A stretch of DNA of 64,000 bases from Octopus sinensis (Eukaryota): NCBI RefSeq assembly GCF_006345805.1, contig NC_043000.1:105772001-105836000 (forward strand), read 5' to 3'. The notes beneath the pieces were generated by a model. That model was not told the DNA's origin and did no database searches. It saw nothing but the letters and a program-made list of their open reading frames with translations. The translations under genes and the position numbers were made by a program. Positions 48,249-50,414 of this stretch are shown here, one piece after another; the first letter of the stretch is position 1, and each line of letters opens with the position of its first letter.

Positions 48249-48748
48249 TTCTGTGTGTGTGGGTGTGTGTGTGAAACACTGTCGTCTGCTAGCAGATGGT
48301 AGGGGTTCACTCCCCTGCTTGCAATTACTGGGTGCAGATTCCATTGATAGTCAGCAGGAGGAGGCACTTCCTGGGGTGAAGAACAGCAGTAATGTTGAAC
48401 AGCCATGTTGATGTGGCGATTAACATTACTTCTCAGTATAGTTACTACTTTCATCTCTTATAGAGACTTTGTAACTGTATATATCATCATCAGCATCATT
48501 CATATATATATATATATGTATGTATATGTACTCATACATACATACACACATATGCTTACATATATACACACACATATATACTCATATGTATATGTATGCA
48601 TATATATATATTACAGAGATGTACTTGCATAGCAAGTGACCTGATCTGAGATCGTGTGCTGGAACAAAAACAATTGCAGCATGGAAGATGTTTATAAGCC
48701 ATTTAAGAAACACACAAAATCTGTTAGATTCACTTCATTTAAATTTAA

Positions 48749-48800
48749 CTTGTCAAAATATTTTCGTCACTTTAAGACCGTGACCTGTTCACTTGACAAG
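48749..48800 (-). ncRNA. Minimal type I hammerhead ribozyme-like motif with variant core (G3-C8)
   Basis: Minus strand CUUGUCA-A-GUGAACA-G-GUCAC-GGUCUUAAA-GUGAC-GAAA-AUAU-UU-UGACAAG: stem I, 5-bp stem II, and 1-bp stem III with palindromic AUAU loop. Confidence 0.5.
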
Positions 48801-48896
48801 TTAAATTTAAATGTTGAAGTGAATCTAATGGATTTTGTGTTTCTTAAATGGCTTATAAACACCTTCCACGTTGAAATTGTTTTATATATATATATA

Positions 48897-49293
48897 CTAG
48901 CAGTATAGCCCAGCGTTGCTCAGGCTTCTTTTCTTTTCAACCCTTTAGAATTGGAATTTTTGAAAAGTAAAAATTTTGCATTATGTAACTTGTTATTCTC
49001 TTTAAGTGAACATTTTTCTGGTTGAAATACACCGAAAAATGGCGACACAGCAGTCAAAAAATCGTAAAACAGGGATTTTCATAGAAAAAAAAGCACCTTT
49101 TTGATGTAAATAATTTTTGGTGTTAACATGGTCCGATTTGAATATTTTCTTCTACGGAAGGAAGAGCAAGCGTTCTTCTATCATACTCTCAATTTTGGTC
49201 AACTTGCAACGCAGGGTCTCGGAGGAGATAGTGTTAGTTGAAGGCTACCAAACCTGCCATACACAGACAACTTCAGCTTTATATATAGAGAGA
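48897..49293 (-). mobile_element. Non-autonomous Helitron
   Basis: Minus strand starts A|TCTCTCTATATATAAAGCTGAAG and ends with an imperfect GC-rich hairpin plus CTAG|T; no TSD. Confidence 0.7.
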
Positions 49294-49479
49294 TATATCA
49301 TCATCATCATCATTTAACGTCCGTTTTCCATGCTAGCATGGGTTATATATAACTTATAAAATAAGGGCAAAAGAAAAGTTCTAATGCCAAATATGCTGAA
49401 AAAAGACAAAATTGTCAATAACCGTTATAATTTATGTGTCTCGAAACAAGCCGATAGAAATTTCTAAAACAGTCCGTTA

Positions 49480-49540
49480 TTACCGTATTGGTCCCAATTT
49501 CGGGGTTAATTCAAAAGAATTTTCCCCTCCTCAGCGATAA
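49480..49540 (-). ncRNA. Type I hammerhead ribozyme, intact catalytic core
   Basis: UUAUCG-CUGAGGA-GGGG-AA-AAUUC-UUUU-GAAUU-AA-CCCC-GAA-AUUG-GGAC-CAAU-A-CGGUAA: all three stems pair; AUA cleavage triplet, predicted cut between 49486 and 49485. Confidence 0.85.
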
Positions 49541-49630
49541 ATACATGACATAAATGAAATACTTGTCAATAACCATTATAATTTATGCGTCTTGAAACAA
49601 GCCGATAGAAATTTCTAAAAATATCTGTTA

Positions 49631-49691
49631 TTACCATATTGGTCCCAATTTTGGGGTTAATTCATAAGAATTTTCCCCTCCTCAGCGATAA
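49631..49691 (-). ncRNA. Hammerhead ribozyme copy, probably inactive (G12A)
   Basis: Same fold as 49480-49540 but CCCC-AAAA instead of CCCC-GAAA (change at 49652). Confidence 0.65.
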
Positions 49692-50117
49692 ATACATAAG
49701 ACATAAATGAAATACTTACTCATACCCATGGAAAAAGTGAGCACTAAGTCCTGAGCAGACATAAGTACCCCAAATATATCCAAAATAGAAAATCTTCAGC
49801 ACATCTCAAGACACGTGTGATTTGAACTAGAAACTTTCACAGAGTGAGATAATCCGGAAGTGAACACTACTAAATTTACAACTAATGTAAGATAAAATTT
49901 TTTCGAAAAAAAATTTTATCAGTGGCCAGCATATCAAAAAATACCTTTAAAGGGTAAATTTATAAATAACTTATATAATAAGGGCAAAAGAAAATTTCTA
50001 ACGCCAAATATGCCAAAAAAAGACAAAATTGTCAATAACCATTATAATTTGTGTCTCGAAACAAGTGCTTGCTTTTTCCATGGGTATGAGTAAGTATTTC
50101 ATTTATGTCTTACATAT

Positions 50118-50178
50118 TTATTACTGAGAAGGGGAAAATTCTTATGAATTAACCCCGAAATTGGGACCAATACGGTAA
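50118..50178 (+). ncRNA. Hammerhead ribozyme copy on the opposite strand, probably inactive (G8A)
   Basis: UUAUUA-CUGAGAA-GGGG...CCCC-GAAA-UUGGGACCAA-UA-CGGUAA; core G8 replaced by A (50129) and first stem I pair mismatched. Confidence 0.65.
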
Positions 50179-50414
50179 TAACGGACTGTTTTAGAAATTT
50201 CTATCGGCTTGTTTCAAGACACATAAATTATAATGGTTATTGACAATTTTGTCTTTTTTCGGCATATTTGGCATTAGAACTTTCTTTTGCCCTTATTTTA
50301 TAAGTTATTTATAAATTTACCCTTTAAAGGTATTTTTTGATATGCTGGCCATTGATAAAATTTTTTTCGAAAAGATTTTATCCTACATTAGTTATATATA
50401 TATATATATATATC

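What the first reader, a model, noticed from the sequence alone, without database searches (positions are those of the whole stretch)
48668..48883. Variant minimal hammerhead (G3-C8 covaried core) exactly in the loop of an 85-bp fold-back
Seen: 48668-48756 and 48793-48883 are near-perfect inverted arms. The loop, read on the minus strand, is GUGAACA-G-GUCAC(N9)GUGAC-GAAA-AUAU-UU. GUGAACA is CUGANGA with both partners of the tertiary C3-G8 pair swapped. Known: the 3-8 pair tolerates compensatory change, and PLE minimal hammerheads have a 1-bp stem III with a palindromic tetraloop and cleave as dimers. Inference: this is a second, distinct ribozyme-bearing family with a rare natural core variant and an extra G after A9. 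The inversion junction coincides with stem I, suggesting the palindrome arose by self-priming on the ribozyme hairpin.
Basis: partly seen in the sequence, partly recalled or inferred. Interest (0 to 1): 0.75.

Follow-up and report, generated by a model that had tools for sequence, protein, structure and literature searches.

The report
Swapped-core hammerhead in Penelope retrotransposon ends
This fold-back is one decayed copy of the end piece of an abundant Penelope-type jumping gene, whose family carries a hammerhead (self-cutting RNA) motif with one key base pair flipped; the layout is ordinary for such elements, the flip is unusual, and whether it still cuts is untested.

Summary
The stretch is a pseudo-LTR (pLTR) with tail, joined head-to-head to an inverted partial pLTR, of a Neptune/Nematis-type Penelope-like element (PLE). 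There are 4107 exact hits to one 35-mer, and other loci link this pLTR to an RT + GIY-YIG ORF. The G3-C8 core is the family state, kept in two subfamilies 84% identical in protein and in runs of related organisms. At the same position sister family 2 has C3-G8, family 3 has U3-A8 and an outgroup has C3-G8, with stem covariation, so the hammerhead fold is well supported. I found no natural G3-C8 in the held literature, but key papers were unavailable. This scan noted G3-C8 PLE hammerheads before in two other genomes. The stem-I self-priming idea is not supported. Only 1 of 32 sampled fold-backs has an exact stem-I junction. 27 of 32 pair a tailed with an untailed arm, and in 14 of 24 the geometry excludes cDNA snap-back; twin priming fits. 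An extra 5' G on many copies suggests capped, uncleaved RNA templates. This copy has an extra A that pairs U17 and is likely dead. Cleavage is untested.

The parts
48610..48793 (-). Arm 1: PLE pLTR plus tail, 5'-truncated at the hammerhead core (subfamily 1A); lacks promoter and transcript start
   Evidence: 174/184 identical to the subfamily 1A majority; the same unit precedes and follows an RT+GIY-YIG ORF in L176, L155, L094
48610..48667 (-). Tail (~57 nt), present on one arm only
   Evidence: 3' ends of copies are bimodal, at unit positions ~138-156 and >=195; tail described in PMC3846280 and PMC11167929
48610..48702 (-). First ~31 codons of the PLE ORF, starting inside the pLTR
   Evidence: The same start runs on in frame into the PLE ORF in L176
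48786..48792 (-). Hammerhead core 3-9, GUGAACA, with G3 (48792) and C8 (48787)
   Evidence: G at 3 in 71 of 75 and C at 8 in 68 of 75 sampled copies
48785..48785 (-). Extra G between A9 and G10.1
   Evidence: Shared by families 1, 2 and 3
48766..48784 (-). Stem II (5 bp) and 9-nt loop II
   Evidence: the family has GUCGC/GCGAC and this copy has two CpG transitions
48756..48765 (-). GAAA, palindromic A-AUAU-U stem/loop III, and U17 (predicted cut between 48756 and 48755)
   Evidence: cleavage position inferred from hammerhead numbering
48749..48755 (-). Stem I, 3' strand
48793..48800 (-). Stem I, 5' strand as supplied by the inverted arm, with one extra A (48793) that pairs U17
   Evidence: Predicted folds; the extra base is absent from family copies
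48793..48883 (+). Arm 2: inverted partial pLTR without tail
   Evidence: 86/91 identical to the 1A majority; shares one private substitution with arm 1
48597..48609 (.). (TA)n target, left flank
48884..48897 (.). (TA)n target, right flank

Best explanation
The stretch is a decayed head-to-head insertion of two terminal-repeat (pLTR) pieces of a GIY-YIG Penelope-like retrotransposon, whose family carries a minimal type I hammerhead fold with a fixed G3-C8 core that is predicted, not shown, to cleave weakly. Shown: family membership, link to the RT+EN ORF, fixation of G3-C8, 3-8 and stem covariation across sister families, the tail/no-tail asymmetry and target-site duplications. Inferred: the element is transcribed from a TATA-like/initiator-like promoter ~22 nt upstream of the core as capped RNA; the PLE protein nicks both strands of an AT-rich target; each nick primes a cDNA at one of two internal start sites (pLTR end, tail end) on uncleaved RNA; and the two cDNA 3' ends are joined, often by microhomology, of which stem I is only one option. 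In the source element the ribozyme would act rarely, as a dimer through the AAUAUU palindrome or with help from the PLE protein. This genomic copy is likely inert.
For: Family: 4107 exact hits to a 35-mer, control 0. PLE link: the 427-aa frame in L094 has YVDD and Pfam GIY-YIG above cut-off; L155 has a 1042-aa open frame followed by the same hammerhead; in L176 the pLTR runs into the ORF. Fixation: 1A vs 1B majorities differ at 5 of 9 loop II positions and 0 of 42 constrained positions (Fisher p 5e-5), while their proteins are 84-85% identical and 34 of 143 four-fold sites differ. No variant >=8% at positions 3-9 in 4 of 4 runs from four organism labels. Covariation: family 2 C3-G8, family 3 U3-A8 in 20 of 20 loci, metagenome outgroup L235 C3-G8; the 3-8 pair is standard in 5 of 5 rows. 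Formation: 27 of 32 head-to-head pairs are tail+no-tail and 0 are tail+tail; in 14 of 24 the tail is on the 5'-shorter arm; direct repeats >=8 nt flank 25 of 41 non-TA units against a mean of 2.9 with shuffled partners. Cap: 88 G to 12 A among the first 100 of 703 copies at a position where the template has C/T, with no shared upstream sequence in 20 of 20 fetched. Literature: in the anole PLE the C3G/G8C double mutant partly rescues cleavage, cleavage needs protein, unprocessed RNA is the template, both strands are nicked and extended, and the tail lies between two RT start sites (PMC11167929).
Against: No cleavage assay. RNA reads show no pile-up of ends at the cut site, though a fragmented cDNA library would hardly show one. 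Genomic copies show no extra conservation of the motif (3.6% vs 2.6% non-CpG mismatch), as expected for dead copies but not a positive sign. Constrained positions are not significantly more conserved than the rest of the pLTR outside loop II (0/42 vs 11/156, p 0.12). Family 2 has C at position 9 and all three families have G at 9a, off the published consensus (H), so the clade's motifs may be weak. The free co-fold of two motifs did not give the active dimer. Rfam finds no hammerhead. The covariation rests on only 5 rows, one of them (the outgroup) misaligned in its 3' half. Twin priming and cap copying are inferred from genome patterns only. Laying reads on a G3-C8 reference favours reads like it.
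Confidence: 0.8

Rival explanations
1. Snap-back self-priming: one cDNA (or an antisense RNA, as Arkhipova proposed) folds back on the ribozyme's stem I and copies itself, giving the palindrome.
For: Exact 7-nt stem-I junctions exist (L002-L004, L081). The window junction is within one base of that register, its tail arm is the 5'-longer one, and both arms share a private substitution. PMC3846280 reads PLE junction palindromes as self-priming.
Against: Only 1 of 32 sampled pairs has that junction. In L002, L004 and L081 the tail is on the arm that starts after stem I, which a cDNA snap-back cannot give; 14 of 24 informative pairs have this geometry. The short arm stops at the same position as untailed solo copies.
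Confidence: 0.15
2. The motif is a catalytically dead hammerhead-shaped element, kept as an RNA structure for protein binding or translation control in the 5' UTR, or simply carried along in a conserved pLTR.
For: Most copies come from uncleaved RNA: 32 of 46 solo copies and 23 of 32 pairs reach the transcript start. There is A9C in family 2 and G at 9a. Cleavage is dispensable in vitro (PMC11167929), and Naiad PLEs thrive without hammerheads (PMC8557442). The whole pLTR is conserved between 1A and 1B.
Against: The 3-8 pair, a tertiary contact of the active fold, is kept through two separate double changes. U4, G5, A6, GAAA and U16.1 are kept in all families while loop II changes freely.
Confidence: 0.3
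3. The fold-back is a MITE-like DNA transposon or hairpin-RNA gene, and the core is a chance look-alike.
For: The unit is ~220 bp with long inverted arms and has thousands of relatives.
Against: The inner junction differs from copy to copy, one arm carries a tail, solo copies are common, and the sequence is the pLTR and ORF start of an RT+GIY-YIG element. Canonical cores sit at the same position in sister families.
Confidence: 0.02

Closest known systems
Minimal type I hammerheads in pLTRs of metazoan PLEs (Cervera and de la Pena 2014, PMC4209133)
   Same: Located in the pLTR, sense to the ORF; extra nucleotide between 9 and 10.1; G10.1-C11.1; palindromic minimal stem III; U17 common; U3-A8 variant as in Schistosoma (family 3 here).
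   Different: G3-C8 core. The aligned motifs I read in its Fig. S3 text all start CUGA or UUGA, none GUGA. G at 9a, where the consensus is H (one listed Nasonia motif has G).
PAc (anole Poseidon PLE; Frangieh et al. 2024, PMC11167929)
   Same: pLTR hammerhead near the ORF start; tail between two RT start sites; AT-rich targets; both strands nicked and extended; unprocessed RNA as template.
   Different: There C3G/G8C is an engineered double mutant with partial rescue; here it is the natural family state. Different clade (Cys-rich linker present here), and the ORF starts ~57 nt downstream of the cut site rather than within the ribozyme.
Neptune/Nematis EN+ PLEs (features from Craig et al. 2021, PMC8557442) and Adineta Penelope structures (PMC3846280)
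   Same: C-terminal GIY-YIG, CX3CxxC linker, pLTR holding the first ORF codons, optional tail, inverted 5'-truncated pLTR, TATA-like box ~20 nt before an initiator-like site, (TA)n targets.
   Different: The tail is ~57 nt rather than 30-40. Placement in a named clade was not tested with reference sequences.
Natural hammerhead core variants (Perreault et al. 2011, PMC3088659)
   Same: Natural covariation of the 3-8 pair.
   Different: That section reports U3-A8 only, not G3-C8.

Membership tests
EN+ Penelope-like element | Single ORF with RT and C-terminal GIY-YIG endonuclease | tested here: met
   In family loci, not in the window: YVDD motif seen, Pfam GIY-YIG 24.5 bits vs cut-off 22.6; 1042-aa open frame. 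The full RT was not scanned against Pfam. No PLE ORF match in the window itself.
EN+ Penelope-like element | pLTR that contains the ORF start, with optional 3' tail | tested here: met
EN+ Penelope-like element | Inverted 5'-truncated pLTR adjacent; AT-rich targets with variable duplications | tested here: met
Neptune/Nematis clade | CX2-5CxxC linker between RT and EN | tested here: met
   CX3CxxC seen in the ORF; feature from PMC8557442
Neptune/Nematis clade | Placement in an RT tree with named references | not tested
   The tree has only own-genome families and two metagenome relatives
Minimal type I hammerhead (PLE) | Watson-Crick 3-8 pair with U4 G5 A6, A9, G12 A13 A14, A15.1-U16.1, H17 | tested here: met
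   the 3-8 pair is G-C
Minimal type I hammerhead (PLE) | Canonical C3 and G8 identities (CUGANGA) | tested here: not met
   G3-C8 in the family. 10 copies changed at both positions genome-wide, none to C3-G8
Minimal type I hammerhead (PLE) | Stems I and II with covariation; palindromic stem III | tested here: met
   (5 rows, outgroup row partly misaligned)
Minimal type I hammerhead (PLE) | Unpaired N17 directly beside stem I (this genomic copy) | tested here: not met
   The extra A at 48793 pairs U17 in the predicted fold; met in family copies
Minimal type I hammerhead (PLE) | Self-cleavage after N17 | not testable with these tools
   No assay; RNA reads uninformative
Rfam hammerhead models | Covariance-model hit | tested here: not met
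   No hit in the window or in L176, L217, L235, L174, which include canonical cores, so the test is insensitive to minimal motifs
Non-LTR retrozyme | Head-to-tail tandem units each with a hammerhead | tested here: not met
   Copies are solo or head-to-head; definition from bioRxiv 10.64898/2026.07.22.740005
MITE / DNA transposon | Fixed internal sequence between terminal inverted repeats with symmetric ends | tested here: not met
   Variable junctions and asymmetric ends

The most novel reading that the evidence does not exclude
One PLE clade in a single genome has explored three Watson-Crick states of the catalytic 3-8 pair (G-C, C-G, U-A) and fixed G3-C8 in a successful multi-thousand-copy family as a working, deliberately slow or protein-gated ribozyme. 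The same family records PLE integration by twin priming from capped, uncleaved RNA at two internal start sites, which would explain the tail asymmetry and inverted pLTRs of PLEs generally.
Probability: 0.4. Interest if true: 0.62.

Novelty: new variant of a known kind. Interest (0 to 1): 0.42.

Why it matters
Standard CUGANGA descriptors and Rfam miss this family, so hammerhead counts in animal genomes are underestimates, and some 'hammerhead-less' PLEs may carry swapped cores. The three sister families form a natural mutant series for asking why PLEs keep a ribozyme that their templates mostly do not use. The junction, tail and extra-G statistics give a genome-scale, testable model for the unresolved origin of inverted pLTRs. 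The particular locus is an ordinary dead copy.

Tried and rejected
Rfam scans of the window and four family loci found no hammerhead. A first pattern search was mistyped by one position and found nothing; it was corrected. The 4-kb tandem array L091/L092 was checked as a possible full element and is a larger repeat carrying fragments. I first read the fixed 5' end as a splice acceptor (branch-point-like and pyrimidine-rich sequence before CAG). I dropped this because copies with the extra G share no upstream exon sequence and a TATA-like run sits ~30 nt upstream; an overlapping intron is not excluded. The window's stem II double change was tested as compensation and rejected: 21 of 1758, against about 12 expected from single CpG changes of 11 and 6 in the first 100. 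Within-family selection at 3/8 was not seen. A free two-strand fold gave intermolecular stem I pairing, not the active dimer. RNA reads (about 6% of one run) show the repeat on both strands, as host read-through would, and no end pile-ups; small-share metatranscriptome rows X19-X20 were not used. A search with an outgroup protein gave no clearly new families (hits not fetched). Papers that could not be opened: Lunse et al. 2017 and two recalled PMC ids for hammerhead surveys. File 1 of the PMC4209133 supplement was not searchable.

Full report
Observation. The inverted arms (82 of 88 paired columns identical, two small gaps) and the minus-strand loop are as described. Numbering: G3 48792, C8 48787, extra G 48785, stem II 48766-48784, GAAA 48765-48762, AUAU, U16.1 48757, U17 48756. 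A strict G3-C8 descriptor hits once in the window and never in 200 resampled windows. One base was overlooked: an extra A at 48793 pairs U17 in the predicted fold, so in this copy the cleavage nucleotide lies in the stem. Rfam shows no hammerhead.

Family. A search of the 2.72-Gb own genome gave 4400 first-look candidates, of which 40 were scored; an exact 35-mer has 4107 hits with control 0. The unit is ~207 nt: about 21 nt of leader and stem I, the hammerhead, an arm, an ATG, and a ~57-nt tail. In family copies stem I abuts G3 directly.

It is a PLE pLTR. L093 and L094 hold the same unit downstream of a minus-strand ORF; the 427-aa frame of L094 has YVDD, a Cys linker and a Pfam GIY-YIG hit above cut-off. 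L155 has a 1042-aa open frame followed by the motif, and in L176 the pLTR's ATG continues into the ORF. The hammerhead is sense to the ORF. This matches published PLE anatomy: pLTR with the first codons, optional tail, adjacent inverted pLTR (PMC3846280, passages; PMC8557442, passages). The CX3CxxC linker points to Neptune or Nematis; this was not tested with named references. The window holds no PLE ORF.

The swapped core is fixed and covaries. In 75 copies taken by position (first 100 hits, duplicates and a co-amplified insertion dropped, copies spanning the motif kept), position 3 is G in 71 and position 8 is C in 68. Subfamilies 1A and 1B (proteins 84-85% identical; 34 of 143 four-fold sites differ, one row possibly decayed) differ at 5 of 9 loop II positions and 0 of 42 constrained ones (p 5e-5), but the contrast with the rest of the pLTR is not significant (p 0.12). 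In contigs or reads of four runs from four organism labels no variant reaches 8% at positions 3-9 (reads are selected for likeness). Only 10 copies genome-wide are changed at both 3 and 8, none to C3-G8. Sister family 2 (54% identical protein) has C3-G8 with C at 9 at the same place after its ORF. Family 3 has U3-A8 in 20 of 20 loci, which were the best matches to such a copy among 1681 candidates. Metagenome relative L235 has C3-G8; L236 ends before its pLTR. The tree groups families 2 and 3 apart from family 1 (midpoint root, long outgroup branches), so G3-C8 and U3-A8 look like separate derived states. On five rows the 3-8 pair is standard in all, and 8 of 14 pairs show two-sided change; the outgroup row is misaligned in its 3' half and the shuffle control ignores relatedness. 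Genomic copies themselves decay neutrally, and the window's stem II changes are CpG decay.

How the fold-back forms. Among 32 independent head-to-head pairs in the position-ordered sample, 27 join a tailed arm to an arm ending at the pLTR end, 0 are tail+tail and 1 is untailed on both sides; solo copies are 30 tailed, 14 untailed and 2 other (p 3e-9 against independent choice). An exact stem-I junction occurs in 1 of 32 (L081; a loose rule also flagged L121); 23 of 32 have an arm reaching the first 7 nt. In the 29 pairs picked for similarity to the window, 3 are exact stem-I junctions and the window is one base off. In 14 of 24 pairs with unequal reach (14 of 25 in the second set) the tail is on the 5'-shorter arm; a second strand copied from a folded-back cDNA cannot hold sequence that the first lacks. 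Direct repeats of 8 nt or more flank 25 of 41 units not in (TA)n, against a mean of 2.9 for shuffled partners, so each unit is one insertion at a staggered cut. The simplest model (inference) is twin priming: each nick primes one cDNA at one of two start sites and the 3' ends are joined, with stem I one possible microhomology. It agrees with the in vitro finding that a PLE protein nicks and extends both strands and starts at two sites that bound the tail (PMC11167929, parts 1-2 of 4 read). For the window copy alone snap-back remains possible, since its tail arm is the longer and both arms share one private change. Of the 15 papers listed (17 matched), none with 'pLTR' contains 'twin priming'.

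Templates were mostly uncleaved. Most copies reach a fixed 5' end: 32 of 46 solo copies. Read-through copies show a TATA-like run ~30 nt upstream and C or T just before this start. Copies with a purine there have G in 88 and A in 12 of the first 100 of 703, and 20 of 20 fetched G copies share no upstream sequence (several run into an inverted arm, at differing points). I read this as the cap copied by RT (the cap-copy signature is recalled knowledge). Thus the ribozyme was intact in the RNAs that made most copies, as reported for PAc. RNA reads show no end pile-up (uninformative library type).

What is known. Minimal PLE hammerheads with an extra base after A9, a palindromic stem III, weak dimer cleavage and a U3-A8 variant are described (PMC4209133, parts 1-2 of 4 and supplement file 2 parts 1-2 of 3 read); the motifs listed there begin CUGA or UUGA. 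Natural U3-A8 is also in PMC3088659 (section 8). G3-C8 appears only as an engineered, partly rescuing double mutant (PMC11167929; PMC8495972 passage; PMC3884650 passage). Searches for a natural G3-C8 found none, but Lunse et al. 2017 (~150,000 variants, recalled) and other surveys were not held and could list it. Two earlier notes of this scan report G3-C8 hammerheads in PLE ends in other genomes; none matched this sequence or this genome.

Verdict. A new variant of a known kind: an ordinary dead PLE end fragment from a family with an unusual, evolutionarily stable G3-C8 hammerhead, set in a clade that also shows C3-G8 and U3-A8. Probability that the family motif is a true hammerhead homologue is about 0.93, that it cleaves measurably with a dimer or protein about 0.55, that this copy cleaves about 0.1, and that twin priming is the main route to the fold-backs about 0.7. 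Interest 0.42.

Noticed in passing
window 49343-50380 (core at 49534, minus strand; further copies near 49690 minus and 50120 plus): A separate repeat with a canonical C3-G8 hammerhead-like motif, in ~151-bp direct copies and an inverted copy; probably another PLE pLTR or retrozyme-like family.
   Followed up: no
L159-L164, L170-L174 (family 2 pLTR): The sister family's hammerhead has C3-G8 but C at position 9, a 2-bp stem III, and U or C at 17; A9C is itself an unusual fixed core change.
   Followed up: partly
L172, L215-L234 (family 3 pLTR): High-copy PLE family with a U3-A8 core, 3-bp stem I and its own tail/no-tail ends.
   Followed up: partly
L066, L072, L097, L101, L112, L113, L120, L127, L130, L136-L138, L140: One head-to-head insertion with an identical junction and shared flanks recurs 13 times among the first 100 hits, so it was amplified inside a larger mobile or duplicated unit.
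   Followed up: no
L083:1485-1500 vs 1618-1632 (unit positions ~1-14 and ~130-145): The first 14 nt of the transcript are partly complementary to the pLTR end, next to the untailed 3' end; this could be a long-range RNA stem marking the second RT start site (seen).
   Followed up: no
L091-L092 (C1:72550000-72568000): A ~4-kb tandem array with four or more units, each carrying pieces of this PLE pLTR and a fragment of another retroelement.
   Followed up: partly
L093, L094, L155 between ORF end and pLTR: The 3' spacer (~0.9-1.2 kb) is largely (TACA)n/(CA)n microsatellite that is part of the element and varies in length between copies.
   Followed up: no
L041: The junction holds four tandem repeats of a ~16-nt piece spanning stem I and the core, suggesting repeated RT slippage at the junction.
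   Followed up: no
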